This document shows, in pieces, positions 886 through 28,187 of a stretch of DNA of 39,607 nt. The position numbers and the translations under genes were made by a program. Below the pieces are notes generated by a model. It searched no databases. It had not been told where the DNA came from and saw nothing but the letters and a program-made list of their open reading frames with translations. The stretch is taken from sequence record SRR31156797_77; one strand, given 5' to 3'. How positions within the stretch are numbered: position 1 is the stretch's first letter; each line of letters opens with the position of its first letter.

Positions 886-1077
886 CTTATAGATCTATGA
901 ATTTGATGAATCTGGTGTTTCTTAACAATTGTGTCTATTTGTATTTGTGGGTAACGTGAATTTTTTGTTTAATGCATCATTACCTCAAATCTTTCTTTTT
1001 TAATTTAGTTTGTGTTTTACTGTCTATTACTGAAATGAATCTACCTAGATTTGGGATCCAAAATTGGACTCCATTAG

Positions 1078-1770
1078 TTAAGCTATTGGGAAGCAGTAAC
1101 TTTTTAGCATACAACGCAGTTCATTTTTGCTACAAAGTTTATTTGTTTTCAAAAAAATGAAAAAGGAAGAATTTGGAGACGCATAAGGACCAAAACACTT
1201 TGAGACCCAAGGTAAGCTATTTAGTGATTCAATAATAGATGCTAATAGTCCTAAAAAGTTTCCTACTTTCCATAAGTCACTTCTTCCATTTTTGCTTCTG
1301 TTTAGCTCACTAGAAACCTTAATCTTTGGGACATAAGTTCTCTTGTTAACATTAAAGGTCCACCAAAATGGCAAATATAAATGCAATATCTTGTCAAACA
1401 GAGGAAAAGATTCTCTTTTTTTTACACAAACCTCTATATGATAGATATCCTTAAAATTTAAATTTTCTATTTTCTTATCAATGTAAACGTCCAAGTAAAA
1501 CTCCAAAACACGCTTGCTAACATTAATATTGGGACGAAAGTATTTCTTATCAAACGCTGGACTCGCTTGAATGATTAAGCTTTCAACATTTAAAATCTGT
1601 TCTGCGTTAAAGTAATAAAATCTTTTAAGAATGAGCAGATTAACCTCTCTTTTTATAAGCATATAATATCTGCTGGTATAACCCACAAAAAATTGGTTAT
1701 AATCTTCAAGGGATTTTATCCATTTGCCATTATCCTTTTCTCCTTTTATTATATTGCTATTAAATATCAT
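1078..1770 (-). CDS. rpl5: Divergent ribosomal protein L5
   Basis: [31 protein letters not shown] resembles L5 [51 protein letters not shown] resembles [23 protein letters not shown]; C-terminal [14 protein letters not shown] resembles EEGRALLAAFDFPF. Confidence 0.7.
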   Translation of the reverse strand: [230 protein letters not shown]

Positions 1771-4592: not shown

Positions 4593-6143
4593 TTAATTGT
4601 AAAAAACCCAGACTTTAATGCTGCTTATTCCTAGAGAGGTTTTAGCGGTTAAAAAAGAATAATCAATTACAGAGTCAAAGGAAAATCTTGGTGTACTTCC
4701 TATAATCATCCTACGCTTCTGTGATCTCTCCCCAGCAGAAGGGAATCCGTATATATTCAGGTGCCCCTTGCATTCTACTAAGACTCCTTTTAAAGTACCA
4801 TTCCCCAAAAAATTGGATATAAAACCTTCCACATTTTTAAAAATTTTTGGTATAGATTCGTTACGCTTAATCATATGTGTTATGTAGTGAGCAAGCTTAA
4901 AAGCATGTGTTGGGAGAACCAAGGAACCTAAATACGGCTCAGTTCTGCTCGTGTCTTCTATTGCAGACACCCATCTTGGTCTTCTACTAAGCTCTTCCTC
5001 AATAGAGTGTAATATCACGACGTGAACATCACTTTGAGTGTATTTTTCCAAAACGCTTAGAATGCTAGTTCTTCTAATTTTCTTAACATACTTGTTCTTT
5101 ATAGTGAGTTTTGCCGATCTGGTACTAGAGTCTATAGGAAGAATAATACCTAAAGAATTAGTAGAATGTTTGTTATCTAAGGATATGATTTCATTATTAG
5201 AAATTGCATTTGAATCATAATGCAACTCATGAAATAGTAAATCATTCTTGTAAGAGAATATACTTCTAAATTTTTTCTTAAATAAAATGGGCTTAAGAAA
5301 ATACCATGTCATCACTAGATTCATTTCTATCTTCCAGATATCCATTATAAACGCATAATATTCTTTTTCTGAACGAGTGTTTTGAAGATTAACTATGGAA
5401 AATTTACCTATAGACGAAAACTTATTGTTATAGTCCCTAAGAGGTAACACTTTTTCAAGATTATTTGACTTTAAAACAATATAATTGCTAACGAACACCC
5501 TAGCAAAGCCAGATTTGGAATTTAAATTATTTGCGACACCATATTGTAGATAGCAACTCCTCAATAAATCACGGAAAAAAATTTGAAAATTTATAGTATT
5601 ACCCTCTCTTTTTTCAGAAGGCAAACTCTTTGAAAAAGGGTTGGTTAAATCTTGAGTAATGAAATTATCACTTTCCGACAGTTGTCCAGCACTTGTTCTC
5701 CAGTTTTTCACCAAAAAGTCCAAGGAATGTTTTACCGAAACTAATTTAGAAGAGGATCTGAGTGAATTAAAACTAGTTTCATAAAATACACCTTTGCGTC
5801 CCTCAAACAATTTAAATCTAGGTGGTCCACTAACATAAAGCAACACCCAAATAGTAAAGCCGTCTCTTTTAATCACACAATGGTTCACTGTCCTCATAGA
5901 ACTTAGAAAGGAAGACATTTCCTTTTCTCTGAACTTAAATCTGTTTGCAAAGCTTTTTTTCCCCTTGTGCCTTTCAGCCTTTTGAGAGCTTTTCCTACTT
6001 ATCAAATAATTATTTATAATAAATTTTCTTAACGCAAAGTCTTCATATAGAAGGCTTGTATAGTTTTCCTTACTGAACCATTGAGAATTCCAATACCTTG
6101 AATTCCCCATTCTTATTCCAATCGGGTTGGCCCTTCTTGACAT
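4593..6143 (-). CDS. rps3: Ribosomal protein S3 with large internal insertion (516 aa)
   Basis: N-terminal RRANPIGIRMG..WNSQWF; C-terminal GVLVECKG..IDYSFLTAKTSLGISSIKVWV; rps19-rps3-rpl16 synteny. Confidence 0.95.
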   Translation of the reverse strand: MSRRANPIGIRMGNSRYWNSQWFSKENYTSLLYEDFALRKFIINNYLISRKSSQKAERHKGKKSFANRFKFREKEMSSFLSSMRTVNHCVIKRDGFTIWVLLYVSGPPRFKLFEGRKGVFYETSFNSLRSSSKLVSVKHSLDFLVKNWRTSAGQLSESDNFITQDLTNPFSKSLPSEKREGNTINFQIFFRDLLRSCYLQYGVANNLNSKSGFARVFVSNYIVLKSNNLEKVLPLRDYNNKFSSIGKFSIVNLQNTRSEKEYYAFIMDIWKIEMNLVMTWYFLKPILFKKKFRSIFSYKNDLLFHELHYDSNAISNNEIISLDNKHSTNSLGIILPIDSSTRSAKLTIKNKYVKKIRRTSILSVLEKYTQSDVHVVILHSIEEELSRRPRWVSAIEDTSRTEPYLGSLVLPTHAFKLAHYITHMIKRNESIPKIFKNVEGFISNFLGNGTLKGVLVECKGHLNIYGFPSAGERSQKRRMIIGSTPRFSFDSVIDYSFLTAKTSLGISSIKVWVFYN

Positions 6144-6518: not shown

Positions 6519-7400
6519 TTAAATTCGTCTACTTTTAGGGGGACGACACCCGTTAAATGGAATTTTGGTAGAATCAACAAAAGACTTAATCAAAAGTCTT
6601 CCTTTATCAACCCTTAAACCACGAGCCGCGGGATTACGTCCTGGTCCAAATCCCTTAAAAACTACCATAACTGATTTTTTATAATCACTGTTACCCAAAA
6701 CTAACTGACTTCCTCTTTTTTCCCTCTTCTCTTTTTCCACCCCCTTTTGGTAGTGCAAATTAGCAGCGTTCATTAGCTTCTTTATAGCAACTTGTACTGC
6801 AATCCCAGTTTTTCTTTTACCACCCTTAAAACCTACAGCCCCAGGTGTGGTTGTGCAAATGGGGAGGTTGTTTTCACCTTCCACTAAGCTCAAAAATGTG
6901 TTATTTGTATCAGATCGTACCACTATAAAGTACTTGCTTTTGCCACAAATTGAATCTAAATACGACTCATATTTTCCTTTTTCATGTTTAACGTCCTTAA
7001 CTAAACTCTTTTTTATAGCCTTAAACTTATTATAAAGTTTTTTTTCACGGTTTTTTGCAACTTCTAATCCTTCATTTGACCTTATAGCATGCAATGCATC
7101 TCTCTGCTTGTAACCAGCCCATCGCATTTTACCCACTTTATCATCCTTGTACTTTGTATACTTTTCATTCAGGTAGTCTTTAATTTGGTCGGGAGTTTTC
7201 AGATTGTTTTGGATCCTTTCCTTTAAACTTAATGGGGGTCTTCTCTTCTCCACCATTAATTTTCTTCTTCTTTCTTTTGATCGGAATCTTCTTTCCTTTC
7301 TTCTTAACTCCCTTCTTAGTTTAATAAAATCGTCAGAATTGACCACACTCTGGTCATGTATACCATTATTATATCTATTACCATTTATATTATTAGTCAT
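6519..7400 (-). CDS. rps11: Ribosomal protein S11 with ~150 aa basic N-terminal extension
   Basis: NNTFLSL, GAVGFKGGKRKT, KGFGPGR, DSTKIPFNGCRPPKSRRI. Confidence 0.96.
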   Translation of the reverse strand: MTNNINGNRYNNGIHDQSVVNSDDFIKLRRELRRKERRFRSKERRRKLMVEKRRPPLSLKERIQNNLKTPDQIKDYLNEKYTKYKDDKVGKMRWAGYKQRDALHAIRSNEGLEVAKNREKKLYNKFKAIKKSLVKDVKHEKGKYESYLDSICGKSKYFIVVRSDTNNTFLSLVEGENNLPICTTTPGAVGFKGGKRKTGIAVQVAIKKLMNAANLHYQKGVEKEKREKRGSQLVLGNSDYKKSVMVVFKGFGPGRNPAARGLRVDKGRLLIKSFVDSTKIPFNGCRPPKSRRI

Positions 7401-7517
7401 TCTTTTACTAGATTTTACTTATATAAATCAATGCAGACATCAGGGCTCTACTTTTTTTACAAAAAGTACAATTATTAAATGCTAACAAACAACTTTCTCT
7501 GCCCAAACACAAATAAT

Positions 7518-8165
7518 TTAAAAAACACTCTCATTTTTGAACGTCCAAGTCCCAATTAGTGGAAAAATACTACTAATGTAATTAGTTTCTTTTTTACTTT
7601 TAAAGCGGTTTTTGCCGAAAACATTGGAAAGTTTCTTTCTTGAAAAAAGAACCTTTCTATTTAACAAACTATTATTCACTTTTCTCTTATCATATAAAAA
7701 CCGGCAATATTTCTTCCCCAATTTCCTAGACGTTTTTGCGTTATTATGAGTACGTTGCCCATGTACTGGCAAATGCACACTATGACGAGCACCCCTATTA
7801 CACTTAATAAAATGCAAGTGAAGCAGATTAGACTTAACACGTTCCCTTAAATCCAAGTTAAAGGCAAACCAAGTGTTCAATTTAGATAAAGTGCTACTTA
7901 CTTTAAGTAAATGATCCACAAATACAGGCTCGTTTACCGGATGTCTATCGTCTGTATACCCTAAGGCTCTGCAAACTTTTATTGAAGTAAGTTTACCAAC
8001 TCCAACAATACGTTCTATATTTTTCTGAATAGAGTGTGGAAAATATATTTTTTTGTCTAAAATTCTGTAGCTTTCTGGGGTTCTCCTTGTATTGCTCAGT
8101 TTACTAGTAGAAAGCAGCACCCTTTTTCTATGGAGTGTACCTTTATATTTAACTTTTAAGTTCAT
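7518..8165 (-). CDS. rps13: Ribosomal protein S13 with terminal extensions
   Basis: IVGVG, RGARHSVHLPVHGQRTHNNAKT. Confidence 0.95.
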   Translation of the reverse strand: MNLKVKYKGTLHRKRVLLSTSKLSNTRRTPESYRILDKKIYFPHSIQKNIERIVGVGKLTSIKVCRALGYTDDRHPVNEPVFVDHLLKVSSTLSKLNTWFAFNLDLRERVKSNLLHLHFIKCNRGARHSVHLPVHGQRTHNNAKTSRKLGKKYCRFLYDKRKVNNSLLNRKVLFSRKKLSNVFGKNRFKSKKETNYISSIFPLIGTWTFKNESVF

Positions 8166-8191
8166 ATTTATTGAAATCAGAGCCTATTATA

Positions 8192-8262
8192 AGACAGGTA
8201 GCATAATGGCAATGCCGGGGATTGCAAATCCCTAAATAGTGGTTCAATTCCACTCCTGGGCT
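8192..8262 (+). tRNA. trnC(gca): tRNA-Cys (GCA)
   Basis: Anticodon arm GGGGA-TTGCAAA-TCCCT, T arm AGTGG-TTCAATT-CCACT, U73. Acceptor pairs 1-3 mismatched. Confidence 0.92.
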
Positions 8263-8305
8263 TTAACTACTTAATCTTTTTTAAGTGCAAAAAAAAACTA
8301 CATTG

Positions 8306-9328
8306 CTATATAATAACCAAAAATATGGAAAAGATAGTAAATATTGTTAGCAATACTTTAGAACAGTATCTAACTAAGTATTGATATTCTCTTTTGCTGG
8401 AGAAATGGTAAGTAGATTTATAATTCATAAAAAGAAAATCAGCATTGATCAATTTGTTAACAGAATAGAGTGAGTATATAAGGGAGAATAGTTTGTGAAA
8501 AAATCCAATATAGCACCGGTTAAATTTAACGTATAAAAAGAAAGCCATAAGGGTAAAAACAAAGCTGAAGGCAGCCATCTCAGGCATTAGGAAAAAATAA
8601 AGTCTTACTTCTTCCTCAAAAATATTAAATTTGTTTGAAATTATAGAATTGACTATGTTAGAATTTGAGAAGGAGTTTAGTGTTTTAACATTAACATTAA
8701 TTATAGGCCAAATTTGGACAAAGAGAAAGAAGCCAATAAGAAAAAACGGAAAAAAAAAGCCTTTATAGTTACAAAGATACATTAAAAAAATGACGAAACC
8801 AAGTTTCCTAAGCCCAAAGTTTCTATTTAAGATAATCATAAAATGCAATAATAAGGAACCACTAGTATAAACTAGATGCAGAAAACAAGCTCTCAAAAAA
8901 AGGCACAACCCTTCACTTTCCAAACCCACAAAACTAACAAATAGTAACTTGTTTTTTTTCATTATGTTATTTAACGTTATAAACGAAACTAAATAATTTA
9001 AAAACAAATTTAATGGAACCAAGATTACTTTATTACTAGTAAATTTTGACACGATCTTTATAACTTTAAAAGATACTTTTTCCACAGTTTTTACCTGAAA
9101 AAACAGAAAAACATACCAAAATATAAATATACTTTTGTCTATTATCGGATTAGCTATATAAAAAGTGTGAAATAAACTAGAAAATGGTATTTTATAGAAT
9201 AAGAACTCCCCTAAGTAATCAAGAGCATCAAGACCTACATTCATACCCATACAAGGAACGACAATATAGTCGCTCCAAAACGAAAATGTCCAAAAGATAC
9301 TCAACGTGATTAGACCTTGTATTATCAA
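8306..9328 (-). CDS. secY: Divergent preprotein translocase subunit SecY (TTG start)
   Basis: Polytopic membrane protein with colinear SecY motifs: YIVVPCM (FIPIPGI), KSIF (ASIF), TSGSLLLHFMIILNRNFGL (VTGTMFLMWLGEQITERGI), LMPEMAAFS (VIPAIFASS), FSLIYSLYSVNKLINADFL (FCFFYTALVFNPRETADNL). Lies upstream of rps13-rps11. Confidence 0.8.
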   Translation of the reverse strand: MIIQGLITLSIFWTFSFWSDYIVVPCMGMNVGLDALDYLGEFLFYKIPFSSLFHTFYIANPIIDKSIFIFWYVFLFFQVKTVEKVSFKVIKIVSKFTSNKVILVPLNLFLNYLVSFITLNNIMKKNKLLFVSFVGLESEGLCLFLRACFLHLVYTSGSLLLHFMIILNRNFGLRKLGFVIFLMYLCNYKGFFFPFFLIGFFLFVQIWPIINVNVKTLNSFSNSNIVNSIISNKFNIFEEEVRLYFFLMPEMAAFSFVFTLMAFFLYVKFNRCYIGFFHKLFSLIYSLYSVNKLINADFLFMNYKSTYHFSSKREYQYLVRYCSKVLLTIFTIFSIFLVII

Positions 9329-9337
9329 CAGTTATTT

Positions 9338-9955
9338 TTACTCTTTTAACTTATTTCTATGAAACTTCAAGAAGACTTTACTTTTGTTAACCAGTGAATA
9401 TAATTCATTTCTTTTTTTTACACAAAGACCATGACCCAGATAAGCTTCAAGACTTTGAGTAACCAGTCTAGGCCAACTTCCCATTGAGTGGAACCTATCT
9501 ATAGAACTAGAACACTTGATCCAAAACCGAATTGTGCTTTGCAACTGTCTAAAAGACGTTACTACAATAGGAATTTGAGTTACAGTTTTATTTTTTTTTA
9601 CCCTACGAATTTCAACGGTTCTACCTATATTGTGAATCAACGAGTATAGGAACTTATTTGGATCCTTAGAAATACGGGACTTTATACAAAAACAAATCTT
9701 GCTCAACAAAGAAATTCCCTTACTTTTGTGTCCTTTCTTATTAAAGGCTCCAACAACCCCTTTGGTAAAGGGATCTAAAAACAAATCAGTATTTTTTGCT
9801 CTAACATTACTAGTGACAGCCAAACAAGAGTTATAAAGCCAATCTACAGGAGAAGTATCAAATTTGTCTAGTTTGGAATACCTATTTCTTTTTGCTTCAT
9901 CCTTTTTTGAGGAGAAATATACGTGCTTAATATAACTTTTTACCATAAATTTCAT
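9338..9955 (-). CDS. rps7: Ribosomal protein S7
   Basis: KKGHKSKG, VEIRRVKK..TQIPI, IRFW, KKRNELY; directly downstream of rps12. Confidence 0.9.
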   Translation of the reverse strand: MKFMVKSYIKHVYFSSKKDEAKRNRYSKLDKFDTSPVDWLYNSCLAVTSNVRAKNTDLFLDPFTKGVVGAFNKKGHKSKGISLLSKICFCIKSRISKDPNKFLYSLIHNIGRTVEIRRVKKNKTVTQIPIVVTSFRQLQSTIRFWIKCSSSIDRFHSMGSWPRLVTQSLEAYLGHGLCVKKRNELYSLVNKSKVFLKFHRNKLKE

Positions 9956-9963
9956 GCGTTTAT

Positions 9964-10338
9964 TTACTCTTTGGAAGTACCATACAATGAGCGACTACGC
10001 TTTCTGTCAAATATTGGGCTCAAATCAAATTTTCCCCTTACAAGATGATATCGCACACCAGGTAGATCTGGAACTCTCCCTCCTCTAACCATAACGACTG
10101 CATGCTCTTGAAGGTTGTGTCCTTCACCAGGTATATAAGCAAACAATTTTTTTTTATTTGAGAGCAATATTTTAGCAACTTTTCTTCTTGCGGAGTTAGG
10201 CTTTTTAGGTGACCTAGTAAAAATCTTTATGCAAGTTCCCTTTTTTAAAGGCGCACCATCAAAGGCCGGAGTCTTTTTTCGTCTTTTTTTTTTTATGCGA
10301 GCGTTACTCTTTATAAGTTGTCGTCTGGTAGAGAACAA
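9964..10338 (-). CDS. rps12: Ribosomal protein S12 (TTG start)
   Basis: [36 protein letters not shown]. Confidence 0.99.
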
Positions 10339-10403
10339 TTAGTTTTATCTGTAGGGTAAAAATTAACAATTATACTTGTCGAATATATAACATAAACGAA
10401 ATT

Positions 10404-10478: not shown

Positions 10479-11375
10479 TTATTGAGCCACTTTGGGTACT
10501 CTCTGAGTAGCAGATAGCTGCAAATACTTTAACAGTACAAATAACTGTTTATATATATTATTGCAACTTTTAAGTTGCGTTGTTAAAACCTTTCTGTAAA
10601 ATGTAATGGCATTATTCACTGAAGTGAAACGAACCAATTTGTTTATATCAGTGGTTCTAAGCATATAAAACCCGACACAAACTATACAAGGAAAACAGTC
10701 TCCCGTAGAGAACTCTCCCTCCAAATTTAATTTACTAATACCCTTTAAGGCACACCATGAGTTATTACTGAATCCTACCAAACTATTAGATGATATACTG
10801 TTGTACAACCAGTTGAGAGTGATTTCTCCACACCCATTTCTTCCGACAAAATTGGCTTTTTTAGACATCCTGTATGGGACAGATCCAACCTTTTTGAAAA
10901 AGTTAGTTGTTCGACGAATTAAATGAAAGGTAGGACCACAAAAATCCACTATTTTAAGACTTTTTACAGTTTTCATAGATTGTGTATGAAAAACAACGAC
11001 AAAGTTAGGAATATTTAAACACAACAAAAATCTTTTCTTTTCTACGTTTGCACGCTCACTATGTTTGTGTATTCTTTTTTTACTATCTTTTTTACCATTA
11101 ATCTTTTTAAAACTATTATAATCCTGATTAAGGGCTTCCAAAAGACCTTTCGTCTCAGAAAGCCACTGTCTTGGAGATCCTATAGTCCTTTCAAGAGCCG
11201 TCTTCTTCAATTGCCACCATATATCACCTGGATATATATCCATGAAAAAACCTAATTTTTTCTCCACGAATTTTTCCTCCTTACTCCATTTAAAGCTACC
11301 AAATCTGTTCCTATTTATTATAACAGATAACTTAACCTGCCTGTTTTTTAATTGATCTGCGACCTTACTTTTCAT
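10479..11375 (-). CDS. rpl10: Probable ribosomal protein L10 with N-terminal extension
   Basis: VVVFHTQSM, LYNSISSNSLVGFS and VGFYMLRTTDINKL loosely match the pattern of protist mitochondrial Rpl10; by-eye only. Confidence 0.5.
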   Translation of the reverse strand: MKSKVADQLKNRQVKLSVIINRNRFGSFKWSKEEKFVEKKLGFFMDIYPGDIWWQLKKTALERTIGSPRQWLSETKGLLEALNQDYNSFKKINGKKDSKKRIHKHSERANVEKKRFLLCLNIPNFVVVFHTQSMKTVKSLKIVDFCGPTFHLIRRTTNFFKKVGSVPYRMSKKANFVGRNGCGEITLNWLYNSISSNSLVGFSNNSWCALKGISKLNLEGEFSTGDCFPCIVCVGFYMLRTTDINKLVRFTSVNNAITFYRKVLTTQLKSCNNIYKQLFVLLKYLQLSATQRVPKVAQ

Positions 11376-11481: not shown

Positions 11482-13359
11482 TTACTGACAGTAAAAAGAA
11501 CATAAAGCCTTACACAACAAGTATTGAGCTCGTAACCAATCACTTAAATTATTTTTTCCTAAAGATGATACAACTAAAATGTTTTGTAAATTTACAAAAC
11601 ATTTTGACTTCAAGTTTCTACCATAATACTGAACTTTTGAATCAGAACTGTTTAAAGCAAGAAAGCGTACTATTTGGAGAAAAAAGAACGTCACAAAAAC
11701 ATCTAAGTCGCACAAAGCCAAATTGATGTTAAACTGATTAAGAAGTCCCGACACAACAGCATACAATTTAACAACTTGTACATCAAGTGGAAGCGGACAG
11801 TGTATATCTTGTTTTAACAACTCAGTAAATAATTGACCTCTTTGCAACAAATATACGGTAGATTGCTCTAAATCTGAGCCAAACTGAACAAAAGCAGCTA
11901 TTTCCCTATACTGTGCTAATTCAAGCTTCAAATTAGATGAAATACGCTTCATAGGAAGCTGCTGAGCTGAAGAACCAACCCTGCTAACGGACAATCCTAT
12001 ATTTATTGCTGGTCTTATTCCCTTATAAAATAATTCAGTTTCCAAAAATATCTGACCATCCGTAATAGATATAACATTTGTTGGAACATATGCTGATATA
12101 TCACCAGCTTGAGTTTCGATTATAGGCAGTGCCGTAAGCGATCCAGAACCAAATTCTTCTCTCATTTTGGCCGCGCGCTCTAATAGTCTAGAGTGTAAGA
12201 AAAACACATCACCTGGAAATGCTTCCCTACCTGGAGACCTACGCAAAAGGAGAGACATTTGTCTATAAGCAACTGCCTGTTTGCTTAGATCATCATATAC
12301 AACTAAACAATGCATTCCTTCATTTCTGTAATACTCACCTATGGTACAGCCTGTAAAAGGAGCCAAAAATTGTAGTGGGGCCGCGTCAGATGCGGTTGCT
12401 GCAACCACTGTAGTGTAACTAAAACTTCCTTTTTTGTTCAAAAAATCAACAACCTTTGAAATTGTTGATCTTTTTTGTCCTATTGCAACATAAACACAGT
12501 AAACTACTTCCCAGGGGTTATTATTATTATATGCAATAATATTTGAAAATGACTGATTTAGTATGGAGTCTAAAGCAATGGATGTCTTACCTATTTGTCT
12601 GTCCCCAATTATCAGTTCACGTTGCCCCCTTCCAATTGGAATCAAACTATCTATTGTTAATATACCAGTGTAGAGAGGCTCATTAATAGATTTTCTTTTT
12701 ATTATTCCAGGAGCTTTACTCTCCAAAAGATAGAATGGTATGTTTTTTTTCATTATGAACTCATACCACTCACTAAAACTGTTTTTTTGATTATCTGGAC
12801 ACCCTAAAGCGTCTACAACTTTACCTAATAAAATTTTGCCTACAGGTATATATATAACCTCTCCTGATCTAGAAACACTCTGCCCCTCTGTAATGTCCTT
12901 ATCATTTCCAAAAACAATAGCATTTACCTTTTCTTTTTCTATATTAAGCGCCATTCCCATAACACCTCCACCAAAATCTATTTTTTCACCAACCTTAACA
13001 CCCAATAACCCAAAAATTTTTGCAACTCCGTCACAAACTGACAGCACTCTCCCAACTCTATCCAGACGGACCGTTGCTCTGTAATTGATTAATCTTTCGT
13101 GAACAAGTAAATAGAATGTAAGAAAATTGTTTTCAAAATCCTGGCTACGACCTAAACCGAACTCTGCCCAGTAAGTATAAAGAAAGCGAAAAAAATTTCC
13201 ATGTGGATACTTGGTTGATACAGTGACCCTTTTTGCATAATTTAATACTCGTTCGGCATCTCCCTTTCTTATGGGAAAGCCATCTATGTTTTTGGGAAAT
13301 AAGTTTTTATCCATTTTCTGGATTACGAAAAGATTGTTTACATTTTTTGACACACTCAA
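11482..13359 (-). CDS. atp1: ATP synthase F1 alpha subunit with N-terminal extension (true start uncertain; may be fused to upstream delta-like ORF)
   Basis: [63 protein letters not shown]. The ORF-track start is a TTG immediately after an in-frame TAA. Confidence 0.98.
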
Positions 13360-13804
13360 TTATAACTTCTTTAGTCAAAACGTTAAACATTATGTCATTG
13401 AGACGATTTATTGAATTAGTATTGTCTACAGTGCTACTATTGACATAATTAATCAGTCCGCTTTTCCAGTCCTTTAGACCGAAAACGATGTACTTTGGAA
13501 GTTCGGAAAAATCACCCTTTTCTGCTATACTTTCGACAAGCTGCGTTCTAGTTTCAAACCACAACTCAAACTCTTCATCAGTAAAGTGGCTACCCATAAT
13601 ATTTCTCATCTCATTTTTTAGCTCCAAACTGTTAATCCTTGAATCTGGATCAAAAGGAATTTTTCCCAATTTTGGTCCCCTGAATATTAATAAAGAGTTC
13701 CTCCTTTTTCTCACCATAAAGTCAATTGTCGTGTATGGAAGCCACATAAATGGGCCATCTGGAAGCTTCTGATTATAATTTTTATTCTTGTTTCTTTTTG
13801 TCAT
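13307..13804 (-). CDS. Putative ATP synthase delta subunit (bacterial AtpH / mitochondrial OSCP homologue), N-terminal part
   Basis: [19 protein letters not shown] resembles Atp[51 protein letters not shown] aligns ungapped to [31 protein letters not shown]; atpH-atpA adjacency. Confidence 0.65.
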
Positions 13805-13845: not shown

Positions 13846-15432
13846 TTAAAGTTGGTAATATGATGAGTATAAGTCTTTTTTAAAAAGTACTGTTTCCTCA
13901 CCTCCCAACTGTATCGGGGTTCCTCCCCACCAATATAAACCAATTAAAATGAATAGCCATAAAGCATCCACAAAATGCCAGTACCACACTACGGCATCAA
14001 ATCCCACGAAATTATCATCACTTCCAAACTGTCCAAGTTTACATCTTATTAAGAGTATCCCTATTAAAGATACACCTATAATAACGTGAATTCCATGAAA
14101 TCCAGTTAGTAAGTAGAAAACTGAATGATATATACCATTTGAAATACTGTTTCTTGACTCAACATACTCACAAATTTGTGTAATTATAAATAACATTCCT
14201 AATAAAAATGTGACTTTTAAATCTCTGTTAATTTTTTCATTGATTTTAGAGTCGTAGGTTCTAACATATTCGTAGTTCTCAATCTTGTGTCTTTCCTTAG
14301 AAAATAATCTGTAAGATGAACGCATTTCTGAGATGTAAAATAGTTTATTCTTTAAGGAAATGGAATATTTTGAATAGTAATAAACCACTAAATTGACTAA
14401 ATTTTTATTTAGCTTAGTAAAAATGACTGTTAGAGTAACTTTATTATACCTGTGATTAATCACAGAGTCTGTTAAAGCACGTGTAAAGGATACTGCAGTA
14501 TCCTTTATATTTAGAACAGAATTAGGAAGTGACCCCAGGCACTTATGTGATACTTTATTGTACAAAGTTGATAGTCGTTTGAATAATAATGGAAATAACA
14601 AACTTTTATTGTACTTGTTACGGTGGAAAAGTTTAAAGTCTTCAAAAACGGCGTTTGCTCTGTAGATAGTTGGTTGAGTCAAAAGTGCTAAAAAAAAACG
14701 ATAGTGAACTAAAATAAATTCCCCAACATTATCAATATTAGTATGGAACCAAGCCTTATACAAAGAATAATTACTATACTCTTCACACAAAAACCAATCA
14801 ATAAACCTGAAAAAAATAAAATTCAAACCACCAACTTTTTTCACCTCAGTAGCAGCGGACCGAGTAAAGATTATAGGGTCTTTTTCTTTGTCCAGCAAGA
14901 TAACGTTAGAAGTTTCTGTATTGGCTCTGTTTCTTTTTTGAAAGACTAATTGATAGTGACTTGAGGTTATGGTAATACTTGATATTAGCAAAATAACTGT
15001 ATTTATGAGTGGAATTCCCCATGGGTTTATATAATCAGTCCCTATAGGGGGCCAGACTATTCCAGAAGCAATAGAAGCAACCAAGCTATTATGAAAAAAG
15101 GACCAAAAAAAACCAACAAAAAATAATACCTCAGAAAGTATAACCAGTAAGACCATAAACTTGTAATTAATTACAACCTTATAGCTGCATTTTTCCAAGA
15201 ATATACTTTCTCTAATTACATCTCTTATCCAAAGAGCCATACAATAAAACAATAGGCTAAACCCTATAAGGGATACTAGAGGCCCCTCTTTATAACCGTT
15301 AAAATAAAGAGCCAAACCTATACCAACAATAATCAAAGGAAAACAAGCAAAAAATGGCCACGGGCTGTACCCAATAGAATAAAATCTATTTCTTAATTTA
15401 ATATATTTATAATTATTCTTTTTTTTGTTCAT
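13846..15432 (-). CDS. cox3: Cytochrome c oxidase subunit 3 with ~240 aa in-frame insertion
   Basis: SPWP, WIRDVIRES, SEVLFFVGFFWSFFH, WPP, LLTGFHGIHV, WYWHFVD. Confidence 0.97.
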   Translation of the reverse strand: MNKKKNNYKYIKLRNRFYSIGYSPWPFFACFPLIIVGIGLALYFNGYKEGPLVSLIGFSLLFYCMALWIRDVIRESIFLEKCSYKVVINYKFMVLLVILSEVLFFVGFFWSFFHNSLVASIASGIVWPPIGTDYINPWGIPLINTVILLISSITITSSHYQLVFQKRNRANTETSNVILLDKEKDPIIFTRSAATEVKKVGGLNFIFFRFIDWFLCEEYSNYSLYKAWFHTNIDNVGEFILVHYRFFLALLTQPTIYRANAVFEDFKLFHRNKYNKSLLFPLLFKRLSTLYNKVSHKCLGSLPNSVLNIKDTAVSFTRALTDSVINHRYNKVTLTVIFTKLNKNLVNLVVYYYSKYSISLKNKLFYISEMRSSYRLFSKERHKIENYEYVRTYDSKINEKINRDLKVTFLLGMLFIITQICEYVESRNSISNGIYHSVFYLLTGFHGIHVIIGVSLIGILLIRCKLGQFGSDDNFVGFDAVVWYWHFVDALWLFILIGLYWWGGTPIQLGGEETVLFKKDLYSSYYQL

Positions 15433-15499: not shown

Positions 15500-16117
15500 C
15501 TACTTAATAAATAAAGTATAAGACAATATAATATTATCAACATTAGCAACACGAAAATCTTCCTTATAGGAAGGATCTATATAAAAAAGAACAGGGAGCT
15601 CTATTATCTCTTTTGGTGCTATCCACTGTTCTTCAAAGCAAAAGCACTGTATTTTATTAAAATAAATGCTTATGTTATTTGGTGTGGTAGTATAGGTTGC
15701 TATAACTGAAATAGCATGATTTTCCAAATTTTTTATTTTATAAAAAACCAATGCAGCTTCTCCAGATTTAACCAATACCTCCGGCTGTAACGGCGAAAAG
15801 ACTACCCTAGTGGGTTGAAGAACATCAGTATTTAATCTTACTAGAAAGTTGTTAGTGTCCTTTACTCTGTCCTTTAACAAAGACTCTCTCAAGAGCTTTG
15901 CTTTACGAAACAAAGTCTCACCTTCCATTATATTAGCTTGACAGAAAAGGTTATAAACCGGCACTGCACCATATGCCAAACTTACCATAATAATTATAAG
16001 AATCACAAGATAAGAATAATTATAACCACTGTTCTCGAATATTCTTCTCAATTTTTCTTGTCCCTCTTTTTTAACAAAATTCCGATGGATTTGGACGTTC
16101 CAATTAACATTTTGCAC
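15500..16117 (-). CDS. cox11: Cytochrome c oxidase assembly protein Cox11 (CtaG); start may be the TTG at 16051
   Basis: YGAVPVYNLFCQ, YFNKIQCFCFEEQ, LPVLFYIDP, LSYTLF. Confidence 0.97.
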   Translation of the reverse strand: MQNVNWNVQIHRNFVKKEGQEKLRRIFENSGYNYSYLVILIIIMVSLAYGAVPVYNLFCQANIMEGETLFRKAKLLRESLLKDRVKDTNNFLVRLNTDVLQPTRVVFSPLQPEVLVKSGEAALVFYKIKNLENHAISVIATYTTTPNNISIYFNKIQCFCFEEQWIAPKEIIELPVLFYIDPSYKEDFRVANVDNIILSYTLFIK

Positions 16118-16485
16118 ATACCACGTATTTCGTGGGCTGATTTTTTTTCACCATATTTAAGCATACATATTTCATATATAGTTCTTAGAGAAATACGCCC
16201 AGCCAATTCCTTCTTGGGAAGACTACTGCCATACTCGGTGTTGGAAACCCTTTTTACAAAAAATGAGTTGGTTGGTTTAAAGTACTTTATTTTGAAGCTC
16301 TTATCAGGTAAAACCGTAATTTCAACAGGTATTATAGTACCATTTTTGTTATAACTCATTTGTTTCTCAAACTCTTCGCAAACTTGTGAAGAACTTGCAT
16401 TATTTTGTCCTATTGTCTGAGTAACACTTGGCTCTTCAAGTGACCCACCGACCGGAACGAACATCTTGAATTTTTTTTTCCACAT
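16048..16485 (-). CDS. rpl11: Ribosomal protein L11
   Basis: PSVTQTIGQ, CEEF, IPVEITVLPDKSF, GRISLRTIYEI, GTSKSIGI. Confidence 0.92.
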   Translation of the reverse strand: MWKKKFKMFVPVGGSLEEPSVTQTIGQNNASSSQVCEEFEKQMSYNKNGTIIPVEITVLPDKSFKIKYFKPTNSFFVKRVSNTEYGSSLPKKELAGRISLRTIYEICMLKYGEKKSAHEIRGMCKMLIGTSKSIGILLKKRDKKN

Positions 16486-16637: not shown

Positions 16638-18470
16638 TTAATAAAAATTCTTATAAGTCTCCAAATCAATCACTGTAAACAAGTTGTATAAGGAACCAGT
16701 TGTAGCCACATCACTAATGGAGCTTTCAACAATCCTATTAATGTGTGCAACGTCCAGTGTTTTAGTGGAACCAAAAAGGTTCAGTTGCGACCAGTTGTAA
16801 AACTTTGATTCCATTCTACGCATGGTAGCATTTTTGCCTGATCTTATAAGTTTTTCTTTCAAACCTATTGTCAATCCTCTGTAATGCCTTTTTCTAATAA
16901 GATTTTTGTCCCATTCGTGCTTGTAAACCAAAGAGCCAATTGAACTTATACTTTGATTGTGACATCTCTGAGTGTTAAAACCTTTGATTTTATTCAAAGT
17001 TCGTAATAAAAATTTGTTCATTTTTTTCTTTTTATATATAGGATTAGAGTTGTTAATACCAACCAAGAAAGATTTTCTAAAGTAGTTTCTTTTTATTGTT
17101 AAATATAAAACGTCATCTATGGAGCGAGAAAAAGTTGACTTTAATACAAGTAAAGTAAAAAGCTCATTTAAGTAACTATGATCATAACAAGCTTCTAGTT
17201 TAGAAACTTTAACGTGATACCCTTCTAAACCAAGTAAAATCTGTTTAAATTGCATTGAATATAGACGTTTTAATAAAGGCCCTACCCGCTTTTTCAAGTG
17301 GGAACTACAAATAGATGACCTCAAACCATAGGATTCTTTGAAACCACTTAAAACATCAGCAGAGGAAAAAACACTTTTATCAATGTTCAGTGTGCTCATG
17401 AGACCACAATAACATAATGACATTATGTTATCATTAACCCATGAACTTTTCAGGTTAATAAGTGACATTACTCTCAAAATTAATGTATGTAGTGAACCAA
17501 CATACATGGCTTTAATATCATAATTAGTCCAACTTACTGCGTCTATACGTTCATCGTCATCTTGACTAAAATCCATACCATAATTTACTTCTGTACAAGA
17601 TACTAGGTCTCTTTTTGCAATTTCTAAATTATTTGAAACAAGGGTTAAGCAAGTTATGTAAGGTATATACACACCAAGCGTATCGAAAAAGGACATTCTA
17701 ACCTTGGATTTAAAGTCTGATAAATTGATTTTATTAGTGTATGTTTCTAGTTTCCATTGCTCCGCTGACGTTTTGTGAACGTGAGGAGATCTCTGCATGG
17801 AAAAAGAATGCTCTTTAGAAGGTAGGTAAAAGATATTGTTCTTTTTGGGACTGTTAAAAATGTCAAGGATATAACTTTTTTTTGTTCTCATCATAACCCC
17901 CAAGCCGCCAAAACTTTTAGATCTTGTGGAATATATACATGTTGAAAGACATAAACCTTTTTTCCAAACAGATAACAATTTAGTAAAAATTTCAGCCTTT
18001 TTAGAACGCAATTGCGTTCTAAGTATAATATAAAGAAGAAAAAAGAATTTTGATTTAAGCAAATTGAAGTACATTATGAACAAACACAACTCATATATAG
18101 ATAAAATATTAATAATAACACCCTTTCTAAAACTAATAAAATGGTATTCCAATAGGGTATTGCTACCAATGTAATCACCAAATAACATGAGACTCATAAG
18201 TTTATTTTTCATCGAAAATTTTTTCATAAGCCCAGTAAACCGCATGGTTCTCAACTCTTTTATTTTACACTTCCCTTTGGATTTAATAACCTTAAAAACA
18301 AATTTTACTAACTTGTCCTCAAATTGTTTATAATTTAAATCCTCTGCGTTAACCTCATTTAAATACAAATTAATCATTTTTTGTATAAATACTGACTGGT
18401 ATTTACACTGTATTTCATTGTAACATCTAACGTCTAAACTTAGGTTTGCTAAAGCTTTATTGCTTTTCAT
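16638..18470 (-). CDS. rps10: Greatly expanded ribosomal protein S10 (610 aa)
   Basis: YLPSKEHSFSMQRSPHVHKTSAEQWKLETY matches the S10 signature LP..R.F.VLRSPHV.K.SREQF. Confidence 0.8.
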   Translation of the reverse strand: MKSNKALANLSLDVRCYNEIQCKYQSVFIQKMINLYLNEVNAEDLNYKQFEDKLVKFVFKVIKSKGKCKIKELRTMRFTGLMKKFSMKNKLMSLMLFGDYIGSNTLLEYHFISFRKGVIINILSIYELCLFIMYFNLLKSKFFFLLYIILRTQLRSKKAEIFTKLLSVWKKGLCLSTCIYSTRSKSFGGLGVMMRTKKSYILDIFNSPKKNNIFYLPSKEHSFSMQRSPHVHKTSAEQWKLETYTNKINLSDFKSKVRMSFFDTLGVYIPYITCLTLVSNNLEIAKRDLVSCTEVNYGMDFSQDDDERIDAVSWTNYDIKAMYVGSLHTLILRVMSLINLKSSWVNDNIMSLCYCGLMSTLNIDKSVFSSADVLSGFKESYGLRSSICSSHLKKRVGPLLKRLYSMQFKQILLGLEGYHVKVSKLEACYDHSYLNELFTLLVLKSTFSRSIDDVLYLTIKRNYFRKSFLVGINNSNPIYKKKKMNKFLLRTLNKIKGFNTQRCHNQSISSIGSLVYKHEWDKNLIRKRHYRGLTIGLKEKLIRSGKNATMRRMESKFYNWSQLNLFGSTKTLDVAHINRIVESSISDVATTGSLYNLFTVIDLETYKNFY

Positions 18471-21648: not shown

Positions 21649-23976
21649 ATGTCAAAACGAAGACTAAAAATTATCGCAACAAATTTGATATTTAATAAGT
21701 TGATTTATGTCGTTTATAAAATACTGGTTGCTTATAACTTTCTCTCAAAAAGAGGAGGCAGGTGTTTCCACAAGTCTGTAATAGAGCATCAATTACACTA
21801 TAGACTCATAACAGAAAAAGGGTTAAGACATAAGCTTAGTTTATTCTATGGACAAAACTATAATTTTCGCAATAACTTTGTTATAGAACTGCAAAGCATT
21901 ATTTATTGTTGCAAGATACTTAATGAGGCAGTAAGAAGATTTGAGGGTATATGTATAACAACAACACAATGGACTTGTGCTTTATCTCAATACTACGGCT
22001 ATTTTAATGAGGTAAAAGCCGGAGAGGGAAAAACAATTATTATATTGGTCTCCGCATTTATAAGTAATATAGACAGGAAAGGAACTCATGTTTACACATT
22101 TAATGATTACCTGGTTTTGCGTGATGCTATTAACGCGTCTAGGATATTTAACCCGATAGGAATATCGGTTGGTGCTCTGACGGTTGAAAATTGGCAACTT
22201 GTAATTAAGGACAAAGCATTAATGTCCAAAATGGCTTGGATGGATATAATTTATTCGACCTGTAAAACTTTTTCTTTTTGTTACTTAAGTGGGATTGAGA
22301 AAACCAGAGCTCCATATACAGCCATAGTTGACGAAGCGGATAATTTGATTTATGACCAAGCATATGTACCAATAATATTGTCTGAGGGCCATGTTCCATT
22401 CTTAGTGAATGAAACATTGAAAAGAGAATTGTTTAATATTGCTTCAATATTGAAAGAAAAAAAACACTATTTTGTGGTAAAAGGCAACGTTTTTCTTAAC
22501 GAACTGGGCCTTTTACAAGTAGGTAAGGCGTTAAAAGAAGGAAACCTTAAATTTAACTTTATAAATGAAACTTCATTTATGAACCTAAATTTACTAAATT
22601 TAATTAAACAGTATATATTTGCAATAAAAGTTTTAAGAAAAAATGTTGATTACTCAATTTATAAGAAAGACAATAAAATTGTGCTGCTTGATCCTAGTAC
22701 CAGTCGTATTTCTGAAGGTTCAGTCTTTTCCTATGGCTTACAGGAAGCCCTTTACATGAAGGAAAACATTTTTCATCTAGATAGTGAAACAAGAGGTGAT
22801 TCTCATATGGTTGTAATGGATTTGTGGGGCAAATACTGTAAAGTTGTTGGCTTGTCTGCTACTCTTAAATATAATAATATTTATCACTTTTTAAAGGTAC
22901 ATTTTTCTATTCCGAAGTATCAAATACTTTTATTTCCAAAGGCAAAAAAAGATAGCAGATTTGATTTCAAAGGTGTCCATTTATCACGTGTTAGTGATGT
23001 CAATAACATATTAATATTGTTTATAATAGCTTTAGGTATTTGTGGCAGACCTATAGTTATGGTTGATAATAGTCATAATCACATAATCAAAATTACTCTT
23101 CAGCTCAAAAGGCTCGGCGTAGCTTTTCAAAAAGTGAGTTTTGACGATGCAAGTCACGAAAATATAATGGTTAGAAGAGCTGGATCTCCTGGTTTTCACA
23201 CGATTTGTTCTAGGGTGATCTCCAGAGGAACAGACATGGTCTCAAGTGAGTCTTATAGCTTACGTTTGTCTAGATTGTCTCTTAGTAATGCATTATCTTC
23301 CGCTGCAGGTGGAACTTCTCTTATATTAATTAATGGGGAGAAACAATCTCCTCGCTTGGTGGAACAAATCAAGGGAAGAGTCTCTAGAAGAGGTTCTATA
23401 GGAACCTCTTTTAATTTCAGCTTATCAAAATTGAAAAAGTTTGAGTCGTTCCTCAATTCAAGTTTTAATTCTTCTTCTAATATCTACTCGTGTAGACAAA
23501 AAAATTTTGAGTCTATATTGGAATTCTCAACCGCAATAAACAATAATTATTTATATAAGCTAATTCAGACTAAAAACACTGAAAAAGAAAAAATTTTATG
23601 TGCTTTATTTGGAAGGGGAAAATTAACTGACTCTGTGAAGAAGAAGGTAATAAAAATAATATTTATGGAATTAGAAAGTATTAAATTCAGAAGCATAAGT
23701 GCCTTTTTGTTAAAAAGAGACATAGTTACAAGTCTTACTTATCTAATGGAGAGAGATCTACAAAAAGATGGTAAAAAGCTAGAAAACTTTTTTGCGGAAA
23801 ACAAGTTATGTATAAATTATGGTTTACCAGTTAACAGAGGTCTTTTATTATATGAAATAAAATTTATAAGTAGGATAAATGACTTTAAGCTTTCTGAAGA
23901 TAATAATAAAACAGTGGTAAGATTCCTTATGGAATTGGAAAAATTAAATATTCAAAAAATAAGAAGAAGGCAATAG
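21649..23976 (+). CDS. secA: Preprotein translocase ATPase SecA (775 aa)
   Basis: EVKAGEGKT (Walker A, EMxTGEGKT), HVYTFNDYLVLRDA, AIVDEADNL, GLQEALYMKE, GLSAT, GRPIV, SRGTDM, QIKGRVSRRGSIGTS, all colinear with SecA. Confidence 0.95.
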   Translation: MSKRRLKIIATNLIFNKLIYVVYKILVAYNFLSKRGGRCFHKSVIEHQLHYRLITEKGLRHKLSLFYGQNYNFRNNFVIELQSIIYCCKILNEAVRRFEGICITTTQWTCALSQYYGYFNEVKAGEGKTIIILVSAFISNIDRKGTHVYTFNDYLVLRDAINASRIFNPIGISVGALTVENWQLVIKDKALMSKMAWMDIIYSTCKTFSFCYLSGIEKTRAPYTAIVDEADNLIYDQAYVPIILSEGHVPFLVNETLKRELFNIASILKEKKHYFVVKGNVFLNELGLLQVGKALKEGNLKFNFINETSFMNLNLLNLIKQYIFAIKVLRKNVDYSIYKKDNKIVLLDPSTSRISEGSVFSYGLQEALYMKENIFHLDSETRGDSHMVVMDLWGKYCKVVGLSATLKYNNIYHFLKVHFSIPKYQILLFPKAKKDSRFDFKGVHLSRVSDVNNILILFIIALGICGRPIVMVDNSHNHIIKITLQLKRLGVAFQKVSFDDASHENIMVRRAGSPGFHTICSRVISRGTDMVSSESYSLRLSRLSLSNALSSAAGGTSLILINGEKQSPRLVEQIKGRVSRRGSIGTSFNFSLSKLKKFESFLNSSFNSSSNIYSCRQKNFESILEFSTAINNNYLYKLIQTKNTEKEKILCALFGRGKLTDSVKKKVIKIIFMELESIKFRSISAFLLKRDIVTSLTYLMERDLQKDGKKLENFFAENKLCINYGLPVNRGLLLYEIKFISRINDFKLSEDNNKTVVRFLMELEKLNIQKIRRRQ

Positions 23977-24966: not shown

Positions 24967-24994
24967 AATAAAAAGTCTAAACGAAAGAGGCCTA

Positions 24995-27959: not shown

Positions 27960-28187
<228 letters not shown>

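What the first reader, a model, noticed from the sequence alone, without database searches (positions are those of the whole stretch)
8306..9328. Cryptic mitochondrial SecY that appears to lack its last helix
Five separate motifs align colinearly with bacterial SecY, including the ungapped FSLIYSLYSVNKLINADFL versus FCFFYTALVFNPRETADNL. The cytosolic PGIRPG loop that binds SecA and the ribosome is replaced (YHFSSKR), and the protein ends after the TM9 equivalent with no GGTSLLI/TM10. This implies a remodelled channel or a separately encoded TM10.
Basis: partly seen in the sequence, partly recalled or inferred. Interest (0 to 1): 0.8.

Follow-up and report, generated by a model that had tools for sequence, protein, structure and literature searches.

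The report
Orphan membrane gene, possible cryptic SecY
A real mitochondrial gene for a multi-pass membrane protein sits where bacteria keep secY, in a genome that also encodes SecA, but its sequence shows no measurable likeness to SecY, so that identity remains an unproven guess.

Summary
The ORF at 8306-9328 (minus strand, 340 codons) is real. Its codon usage matches the other genes, and an open frame this long has a chance probability of about 3e-12. It encodes a very hydrophobic protein with 7-10 membrane-spanning segments.

- The quoted 19-mer match has 6/19 identities and a BLOSUM62 score of 19. All 1000 shuffles gave a better one.
- Pfam, NCBIfam, an HMM I built from 43 SecY sequences (-4.5 bits; 573 of 2000 shuffles did as well), hhalign (probability 0.04%), PDB sequences, 1.84 billion representative proteins and the ESM Atlas all find nothing.
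- Seven other membrane families score no better than SecY. The AlphaFold model is unusable (pLDDT 44).

Two pieces of context, which the finding does not mention, keep the SecY reading alive:
- The same genome encodes a bona fide SecA (21649-23976), a gene known in mitochondria only from Mantamonas.
- The ORF lies directly upstream of rps13-rps11, the ancestral secY position.

No recognisable secY, secE or secG occurs anywhere else in the window.

Verdict: an orphan inner-membrane protein. A SecY-type partner of SecA, diverged beyond recognition, is the most likely single identity (about 35%). This rests on context only and is not shown.

The parts
8306..9328 (-). ORF340: orphan polytopic membrane protein gene (340 codons, TTG start as listed; first ATG is codon 27). 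Candidate cryptic SecY.
   Evidence: Searches show a real coding frame with 7-10 hydrophobic segments. No family hit.
8432..8488 (-).
   Evidence: 6/19 identities, BLOSUM62 score 19. 1000 of 1000 shuffles give a better 19-mer.
8390..8410 (-). Codons 307-313 (YHFSSKR). In my global profile alignment R313 falls on the column of the conserved C5-loop arginine (named R357 from memory). The PGIRPG motif itself is absent.
   Evidence: the alignment, which is not significant.
8309..8365 (-). Codons 322-340, the last and strongest hydrophobic segment. The stop codon is at 8306-8308.
8195..8258 (+). tRNA in the spacer between ORF340 and rps13. I read its anticodon loop as GCA (Cys). It leaves no room for a downstream TM10 ORF.
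   Evidence: Rfam RF00005, 49.5 bits. ARAGORN missed it. Sequence and fold.
7518..8165 (-). rps13, directly downstream of ORF340.
   Evidence: Pfam Ribosomal_S13, 1.4e-10.
6519..7400 (-). rps11, following rps13 as in the bacterial alpha operon.
   Evidence: Pfam Ribosomal_S11, 6.7e-10. E. coli order.
9338..9955 (-). rps7, directly upstream of ORF340.
   Evidence: Pfam Ribosomal_S7, 3.5e-10.
9964..10338 (-). rps12, upstream of rps7.
   Evidence: Pfam Ribosom_S12_S23, 2e-31.
21649..23976 (+). secA: mitochondrion-encoded SecA ATPase (775 aa). The motor domains are well kept. The C-terminal 594-775, which should face the channel, is unrecognisable.
   Evidence: Pfam SecA_DEAD 3.6e-28 and SecA_PP_bind 1.8e-9. 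NCBIfam SecA models to 2.4e-48, all below their curated cut-offs. Best bacterial SecA E 2.5e-40 at 28% identity. GEGKT 125-129 and D228/E229/D231 invariant in the alignment. AF2 pLDDT 70-94 over about 50-590 and below 50 over 594-775. Foldseek top hits are SecA, 1tf5 at E 6.9e-35.
15500..16117 (-). cox11, the protein proposed in the literature as a substrate of mitochondrial SecY in jakobids.
   Evidence: Pfam CtaG_Cox11, 6.2e-41. The substrate proposal is quoted in PMC8662606 (passages) and in bioRxiv 10.1101/2024.01.30.577968.

Best explanation
ORF340 is a genuine mitochondrial gene for a compact polytopic inner-membrane protein that has no detectable relative anywhere. The most likely single identity is the SecY-type channel subunit that the mitochondrion-encoded SecA of the same genome needs, diverged beyond sequence recognition.

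Shown: the gene is real, the protein is multi-spanning, SecA is present with intact ATPase motifs, and the gene order matches the ancestral one.

Inferred: that ORF340 forms the channel, that SecA docks on its matrix-side loops (residues 211-247 and 293-321), and that together they push hydrophilic parts of mitochondrion-made proteins such as Cox11 across the inner membrane. Whether it lacks TM10, or TM1, cannot be decided.
For: 1. SecA is encoded in the window and looks active. From general knowledge, SecA has no established role without SecY. In the papers read, every mitochondrial SecY reported so far is encoded in the mitochondrial genome: jakobids (PMC8662606 passages) and Mantamonas (preprint text).
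2. No recognisable secY, secE or secG exists anywhere in the six-frame translation of the window. The best SecY hit among 1075 ORFs is E 0.021, antisense to another ORF. ORF340 is the only unassigned ORF with many hydrophobic segments.
3. ORF340 lies directly upstream of rps13-rps11 on the same strand. This is the secY position in E. coli, in 29 of 33 alphaproteobacterial loci with at least 1.4 kb of downstream flank (29 of 42 loci examined), and in jakobids and Mantamonas according to the preprint.
4. The window holds 24 tRNA genes and lacks only Phe and Arg(CGN). So most of the genome is probably in view.
5. Failure to be recognised is common in this genome. 8 of 34 ORFs counted have no Pfam family even at E<=10. 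Several identified proteins sit at or below Pfam cut-offs: S3_C 23.8 against 34.1, L19 22.6 against 22, Sdh_cyt 19.9 against 25.8.
6. The part of SecA that should face SecY (594-775) has itself lost all recognisable sequence. This fits a co-diverged partner.
7. This is suggestive only.
Against: There is no sequence or structural signal at all.
- Pfam and NCBIfam give 0 families at E<=10.
- My SecY HMM scores -4.5 bits, and 573 of 2000 shuffles do as well. A repeat gave 295 of 1000.
- hhalign probability is 0.04%.
- The global profile alignment has z 1.06, with 21 of 150 and 23 of 150 controls as good.
- The hydropathy-profile alignment has z -0.71, with 45 of 60 block permutations as good.
- Sub-regions are null. 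The ESM Atlas has no SecY among its top clusters; the best score is 0.83.
- SecA in the same genome still scores E 1e-40 to 1e-48. An equally decayed SecY should have remained detectable.
- Even jakobid SecY, called the most divergent known, keeps 25% identity in R. americana (PMC8662606 passage).
- The protein is about 100 residues shorter than bacterial SecY (340 against 434-502 aa open frames), whereas most identified proteins here are longer than usual.
- The PGIRPG loop motif, a GGTSLLI-type TM10 and a basic C-terminal tail are all absent.
- Part of the genome (between rns and rnl) is unseen and could hold a canonical secY.
Confidence: 0.35

Rival explanations
1. ORF340 is a lineage-specific inner-membrane protein unrelated to the Sec system. 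Its position next to rps13 results from rearrangement. SecA's partner is encoded elsewhere, or SecA has another role.
For: ORF340 has no relative in 1.84 billion representative proteins, in the 5.8-billion-protein word search, in metagenome contigs or in the Atlas. Seven other ORFs of 165-1045 aa in the window are equally orphan. All SecY tests are null. The ribosomal gene cluster is clearly rearranged here: rps11 is followed by rps19-rps3-rpl16.
Against: It leaves SecA without any visible partner in a window that probably holds most of the genome. Exact adjacency to rps13-rps11 on the same strand would be a coincidence, roughly 1 in 30 by my estimate from the gene count.
Confidence: 0.28
2. 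ORF340 is a known mitochondrial membrane component, other than SecY and the seven families tested, that has diverged beyond recognition. An example would be a respiratory-chain or ATP-synthase accessory or assembly subunit.
For: This genome's proteins are extremely diverged and often extended. cox2 and several usual mitochondrial genes are not recognisable in the window. So some orphan ORFs are probably known genes in disguise.
Against: The usual missing candidates that I recall (Cox2, Atp4, Sdh4) have 1-3 membrane helices, not 7-10. No Pfam or NCBIfam family appears even at E<=10.
Confidence: 0.17
3. ORF340 is a diverged member of one of the other polytopic families that gene-rich mitochondrial genomes encode: TatC, CcmB, CcmC, CcmF, Cox15 or Cox10/UbiA.
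For: cox11 in this genome shows that rare ancestral genes are kept. UbiA gave the lowest shuffle count in hmmsearch (117 of 1000) and z 2.0 against block permutations (3 of 150). Cox15 proteins have a similar length (open frames mostly 359-430 aa).
Against: None beats shuffles in hmmsearch: 117-434 of 1000 shuffles do as well. hhalign probabilities are 0.1-0.6%. The six-frame scans are empty. TatC, CcmB and CcmC are shorter proteins, with HMM lengths of 221-266. The UbiA figure does not survive correction for 16 tests.
Confidence: 0.1
4. ORF340 is a very diverged Nad1 (complex I subunit H).
For: Nad1 gave the best global profile alignment of the eight families: z 2.34, with 3 of 150 class-preserving shuffles as good, and 8 of 150 block permutations. 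The length is the same (340 aa against an HMM of 353). hhalign's best local match is at equivalent positions, 234-262 against 236-264.
Against: The HMMER score is -18.0 bits, and 696 of 1000 shuffles do better. hhalign probability is 0.1%. With 16 tests run, 3 of 150 is not significant. No other nad gene is recognisable in 39.6 kb. From memory, Nad1 is normally among the best conserved mitochondrial proteins.
Confidence: 0.04
5. It is not a gene but a chance open frame.
For: There are no homologues anywhere.
Against: P(340 open codons) = 3e-12. Codon usage is gene-like in this frame only. The ORF fills the space between rps7 and the tRNA tightly.
Confidence: 0.01

Closest known systems
Mitochondrial SecYEG-SecA of Mantamonas sphyraenae (Moreira et al., bioRxiv 10.1101/2024.01.30.577968; parts 1-2 of 3 read)
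   Same: It is a mitochondrial genome that encodes SecA. secY is described there as nested in the ribosomal-protein gene cluster. The genome is gene-rich and uses the standard code.
   Different: There SecY is described as well conserved, with a C-terminal KK motif, and SecE and SecG are also found. Here no SecY, SecE or SecG is recognisable, ORF340 ends in a hydrophobic segment with no tail, and cox11 is present (it is absent in Mantamonas). The Mantamonas genome is 53,051 bp with 73.45% A+T. This window has 29-39% G+C. I could not fetch the Mantamonas sequence for a direct comparison.
Jakobid mitochondrial SecY (Reclinomonas americana and relatives; PMC8662606, passages read)
   Same: It is mitochondrion-encoded and very diverged. 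No SecE or SecG has been found. Cox11 is encoded in the same genome and has been proposed as a substrate.
   Different: R. americana SecY still shares 25% identity with its bacterial counterpart and models onto ten helices plus a plug. ORF340 has no measurable identity. Jakobids have no SecA.
Bacterial SecY (Pfam PF00344; E. coli K-12 b3300 and 42 alphaproteobacterial sequences used here)
   Same: It is a polytopic membrane protein. The gene lies upstream of rpsM-rpsK. The partner ATPase SecA is present.
   Different: ORF340 is about 100 residues shorter. There is no profile match (-4.5 bits). The PGIRPG and TM10 motifs are absent. The helix count is uncertain.

Membership tests
SecY (PF00344 / bacterial SecY) | Significant match to a SecY sequence profile | tested here: not met
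   Pfam and NCBIfam give no family at E<=10. My own 43-sequence HMM scores -4.5 bits, with 573 of 2000 shuffles as good. hhalign probability is 0.04%. Sub-regions are null.
SecY (PF00344 / bacterial SecY) | Ten transmembrane helices in two five-helix halves, about 430-500 residues | tested here: inconclusive
   Kyte-Doolittle profiles show 7 clear and up to 10 possible segments in 340 residues. The hydropathy-profile alignment to SecY has z -0.71. No dedicated topology predictor was available.
SecY (PF00344 / bacterial SecY) | Conserved C5-loop motif (…PGIRPG…) that contacts SecA and the ribosome (motif recalled from memory and as quoted in the finding) | tested here: not met
   Residues 307-313 read YHFSSKR. 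Only R313 coincides with the conserved arginine column, and that is in a non-significant alignment.
SecY (PF00344 / bacterial SecY) | SecY fold (plug, lateral gate, hourglass pore) | tested here: inconclusive
   The single-sequence AlphaFold2 model has pLDDT 44.1. Foldseek against the PDB gave 0 matches at E<=0.001. No orthologues exist to build an alignment.
SecY (PF00344 / bacterial SecY) | Gene position at the end of the spc cluster, upstream of rps13-rps11 | tested here: met
   The order on the minus strand is ORF340, tRNA (opposite strand), rps13, rps11. The E. coli order is secY-rpmJ-rpsM-rpsK. 29 of 33 alphaproteobacterial loci with enough flank agree.
SecY (PF00344 / bacterial SecY) | Partner subunits in the same genome (SecA; SecE and SecG) | tested here: inconclusive
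   SecA is present. SecE and SecG were not found in six-frame scans with my own HMMs; the best E-values were 0.23 and 0.15.
TatC (PF00902) | Profile match | tested here: not met
   -15.0 bits, with 427 of 1000 shuffles as good. hhalign 0.3%. The HMM length is 266, against 340 residues here.
CcmB / CcmC / CcmF (PF03379, PF01578) | Profile match | tested here: not met
   Shuffles as good: CcmB 348, CcmC 434, CcmF 360 of 1000. hhalign 0.1-0.6%.
Cox15/CtaA (PF02628) and UbiA/Cox10 (PF01040) | Profile match | tested here: not met
   Shuffles as good: Cox15 254 of 1000, UbiA 117 of 1000. hhalign 0.1-0.2%. Global alignment z -0.25 and 1.30.
Nad1 / NuoH (PF00146) | Profile match and co-occurrence with other complex I genes | tested here: not met
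   -18.0 bits, with 696 of 1000 shuffles as good. Global alignment z 2.34 (3 of 150), which is not significant after 16 tests. No other nad gene is in the window.

The most novel reading that the evidence does not exclude
ORF340 is a drastically remodelled, shortened SecY (8-9 helices, without the PGIRPG loop motif, TM10 and the C-tail). It works with a mitochondrion-encoded SecA whose channel-facing C-terminal domain has co-diverged. That would be a minimal organellar Sec translocon in another eukaryotic lineage besides Mantamonas, in a mitochondrial genome that shows no complex I genes.
Probability: 0.3. Interest if true: 0.8.

Novelty: new variant of a known kind. Interest (0 to 1): 0.58.

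Why it matters
In the papers I could read, a mitochondrial Sec system with its SecA motor is reported only from Mantamonas, and mitochondrial SecY only from jakobids and Mantamonas. It is used there as evidence that the last eukaryotic common ancestor kept the bacterial export machine.

This window shows a second mitochondrial genome with SecA. Every motor needs a channel. If ORF340 is that channel, it would show how far SecY can be stripped down and still serve SecA. It would also give a natural minimal translocon for structural study.

If ORF340 is not the channel, then this SecA either works with an unseen SecY or has a new role. Either answer is of interest for mitochondrial evolution. The question becomes directly testable as soon as the rest of the genome or a relative is sequenced.

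Tried and rejected
- **Homologue searches for ORF340 all came back empty.** These were the word-indexed search (2418 candidates, none at E<=0.01), phmmer against 1.84 billion representatives (0 hits), PDB sequences (one hit at E 0.098 to an inositol-phosphate kinase, judged to be noise), and the ESM Atlas twice (best score 0.83, unrelated families).
- **Metagenome contig scans found no relatives.** I scanned with ORF340 and with SecA.
- **Sequencing runs:** none was listed for window 7400-10400 and no RNA holder was listed.
- **Whole genome:** none is held for this window.
- **Complex prediction** with SecA 49-775 and ORF340 100-340 returned 'no answer' (score 0.00). This is not evidence either way.
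- **Foldseek on the pLDDT-44 model** found nothing usable. I did not run pdb_via_wide, because almost the whole model is below pLDDT 60.
- **The hydropathy-profile alignment** and the count of conserved columns matched did not discriminate between families.
- **I rejected feeding AlphaFold an alignment of ORF340 forced onto SecY sequences.** That would be circular.
- **Mitochondrial SecY sequences of jakobids and Mantamonas could not be fetched** with the tools at hand, and I did not type them from memory.
- **One script timed out** and one failed on an option. Both were rerun.
- **Literature searches:** 'Solarion' + secA + mitochondrial found 0 papers. 'Solarion arienae' found 1 unrelated listing. 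secA + mitogenome + protist found 7 papers, of which only the Mantamonas preprint is relevant. SecA + Mantamonas + mitochondrial found 2 papers. I recall, from no call, a 2025 report of a mitochondrial secA in another protist. I could not read it, so I make no claim about priority.
- **Supplements** of the Mantamonas preprint (trees, signal-peptide figures) were not opened and may hold SecY alignments that bear on this question.

Full report
**What the window is.** The 39,607 bases are part of a gene-rich, fast-evolving mitochondrial genome that uses the standard code.
- It is bounded by the 5' half of rns (1-886, minus strand) and the 3' end of rnl (39323-39607, minus strand).
- It carries 23 tRNA genes by ARAGORN, plus one more found by Rfam at 8195-8258. 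Only Phe and Arg(CGN) are missing.
- Pfam identifies cox1, cox3, cox11, cob, atp1, atp3, atp6, atp9, sdh2, a weak sdh3/4-like ORF, SecA and 14 ribosomal proteins.
- cox1 is 52-65% identical to alphaproteobacterial CtaD. It is at most 70% identical to any protein among the 120 best listed, which include named mitochondrial cox1. So no close relative is on record.
- Eight ORFs of 165-1045 codons, ORF340 among them, have no Pfam family even at E<=10.

**The observation.**
- It is a real gene. Its in-frame codon-usage score is +0.134 bits/codon, against -0.26 to -0.96 in the other five frames. Identified genes score 0.19-0.22. The chance of 340 open codons is 3e-12.
- The protein is very hydrophobic. 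It has seven clear and up to ten possible membrane segments, and three longer polar loops at 80-103, 211-247 and 293-321.
- It ends in its most hydrophobic segment.
- The 140-nt spacer before rps13 holds a tRNA on the other strand. I read its anticodon loop as GCA. No downstream frame could supply a further helix.

**The claimed likeness to SecY.** I took E. coli SecY from the K-12 record and 42 alphaproteobacterial SecY genes from unnamed species genomes. One unpublished genome was left out.
It is not among the 12 best 19-mer pairs between the two proteins.
- All 1000 shuffles of ORF340 gave a better 19-mer (mean 32.0).
- A 444-position HMM of the 43 SecY sequences scores ORF340 at -4.5 bits with all filters off. 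573 of 2000 shuffles do as well.
- hhalign gives a probability of 0.04%.
- Sub-regions are null.
- A global profile alignment scored z 1.06, with 21 of 150 hydropathy-preserving shuffles and 23 of 150 block permutations as good.
- A hydropathy-profile alignment scored z -0.71.
- Pfam and NCBIfam list nothing at E<=10.

One detail is worth recording. But it started at SecY column 81, that is at TM2. This is a lead, not a result.

**Rival families.** I built HMMs in the same way for Cox15, TatC, CcmF, CcmC, CcmB, Nad1 and UbiA/Cox10.
- None beats shuffles in hmmsearch: between 117 and 696 of 1000 shuffles do as well.
- All hhalign probabilities are below 1%.
- Nad1 gave the best global alignment (z 2.34; 3 of 150). 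With 16 tests run, an HMMER score of -18 bits and no other nad gene in the window, I treat this as chance.

**No relatives and no structure.**
- ORF340 has no hit in the word-indexed search, in 1.84 billion representatives, in PDB sequences, in the Atlas or in metagenome contigs.
- The single-sequence AlphaFold model has pLDDT 44.1, and Foldseek finds nothing.
- No sequencing run was listed, so the stop codon could not be checked against reads.

**Context that favours SecY.** The finding does not mention either of these two facts.
- First, the window encodes SecA at 21649-23976.
  - Pfam gives SecA_DEAD at 3.6e-28 and the preprotein cross-linking domain at 1.8e-9.
  - NCBIfam SecA models reach 2.4e-48, all far below their curated cut-offs.
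  - The best bacterial SecA has E 2.5e-40 at 28% identity.
  - GEGKT and the D-E-x-D box are kept.
  - The AlphaFold model is confident over the motor domains, and its best PDB matches are SecA structures (1tf5, E 6.9e-35).
  - The C-terminal 180 residues, which in bacterial SecA carry the scaffold and the two-helix finger that enters SecY (from memory), are helical but unrecognisable.
- In the literature I could read, SecA was stated to be absent from mitochondria (PMC8662606, passages). A later preprint described Mantamonas sphyraenae as the sole eukaryote with mitochondrial SecY, SecA, SecE and SecG (bioRxiv 10.1101/2024.01.30.577968, parts 1-2 read). This window is not that genome: cox11 is present here and absent there, and the base composition differs.
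- Second, ORF340 sits directly upstream of rps13-rps11 on the same strand. secY holds that place in E. coli and in 29 of the 33 alphaproteobacterial loci that had enough downstream flank. The other 9 of the 42 loci were too short to tell.
- No other part of the window resembles SecY, SecE or SecG.

**Weighing.**
- For SecY: a soluble SecA still encoded in the organelle makes an organelle-encoded channel very likely. ORF340 is the only many-helix orphan in what is probably most of the genome, and it is in the ancestral position.
- Against SecY: the lack of any signal is total, in a genome where SecA itself is still found at 1e-40. The protein is about 100 residues short, and the hallmark loop, TM10 and tail are missing.
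- About a quarter of the ORFs here (8 of 34) are unrecognisable, so non-detection is not decisive.
- I put the SecY-type reading at about 0.35. That makes it the most likely single identity, but it is less likely than all other readings taken together.
- 'Lacks its last helix' cannot be evaluated without a trustworthy alignment.

**Novelty.** If the SecY reading is true, ORF340 is a strongly remodelled variant of a known machine. The firmer and independently interesting result is the mitochondrion-encoded SecA with an unrecognisable channel-facing domain. It sits in a genome that also keeps atp3, sdh2 and cox11 and shows no complex I gene in 39.6 kb.

Noticed in passing
window 21649-23976 (+): A mitochondrion-encoded SecA. 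The ATPase motor and the preprotein-binding domain are recognisable. The C-terminal 594-775 is helical but matches no SecA scaffold, wing or finger sequence. In the papers I could read, mitochondrial SecA is known only from Mantamonas.
   Followed up: yes
whole window 1-39607: No nad (complex I) gene and no cox2 is recognisable in 39.6 kb that hold 24 tRNAs and about 34 protein ORFs. The rare mitochondrial genes atp3 (24070-24966), sdh2 (19547-20566), cox11 (15500-16117), rpl19 (37006-37467) and rpl11 (16048-16485) are present. Either complex I genes are absent from this mitochondrial genome or they are all in the unseen part.
   Followed up: partly
window 8195-8258 (+): A tRNA found by Rfam (49.5 bits) but missed by ARAGORN. 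Its anticodon loop reads GCA (Cys) and its acceptor stem looks irregular.
   Followed up: partly
window 1-886 (-) and 39323-39607 (-): The window starts inside rns and ends inside rnl, both on the minus strand. The unseen remainder lies between the 3' part of rns and the 5' part of rnl and should hold at least trnF and trnR(CGN).
   Followed up: no
window 37762-38778 (-): A 338-aa hydrophobic ORF. Only its last ~70 residues match succinate dehydrogenase membrane-anchor models (Pfam Sdh_cyt 8.1e-4; TIGR02968 1.4e-4). It may be an sdh3-sdh4 fusion, or an anchor subunit with a long unexplained N-terminal part.
   Followed up: partly
window 4593-6143, 16638-18470, 11482-13359, 13846-15432 (all -): Several identified proteins are far longer than their bacterial counterparts: rps3 516 aa, rps10 610 aa, atp1 625 aa, cox3 528 aa. 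The recognisable domain covers only part of each.
   Followed up: no
window 33857-36994 (+), 28539-30350 (+), 25262-26281 (+), 10479-11375 (-), 1078-1770 (-), 13307-13804 (-), 20609-21433 (+): Seven further orphan ORFs (1045, 603, 339, 298, 230, 165 and 274 aa) have no Pfam family at E<=10 beyond noise. Some may be ribosomal proteins (rps4, rps8, rpl2, rpl5) diverged beyond recognition.
   Followed up: partly
window 24968-25225 (+): An 86-codon open frame between atp3 and orf339. It has a basic stretch followed by a single C-terminal hydrophobic helix, an architecture reminiscent of single-helix SecE. Neither Pfam, NCBIfam nor my SecE HMM supports it.
   Followed up: partly
window 27570-27842 (+) and 27960-28184 (+): Small genes below the 80-aa ORF cut-off. 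One is atp8-like: it has MPQLD at its first Met, and a weak YMF19 hit (E 0.67). The other is atp9 (ATP-synt_C, 2.1e-15). They give the run atp6-rps14-atp8-atp9.
   Followed up: partly
window 16048-16117 (-): The listed cox11 ORF (GTG start at 16117) and the rpl11 ORF (stop at 16048) overlap by 70 nt. The real cox11 start may lie further downstream.
   Followed up: no
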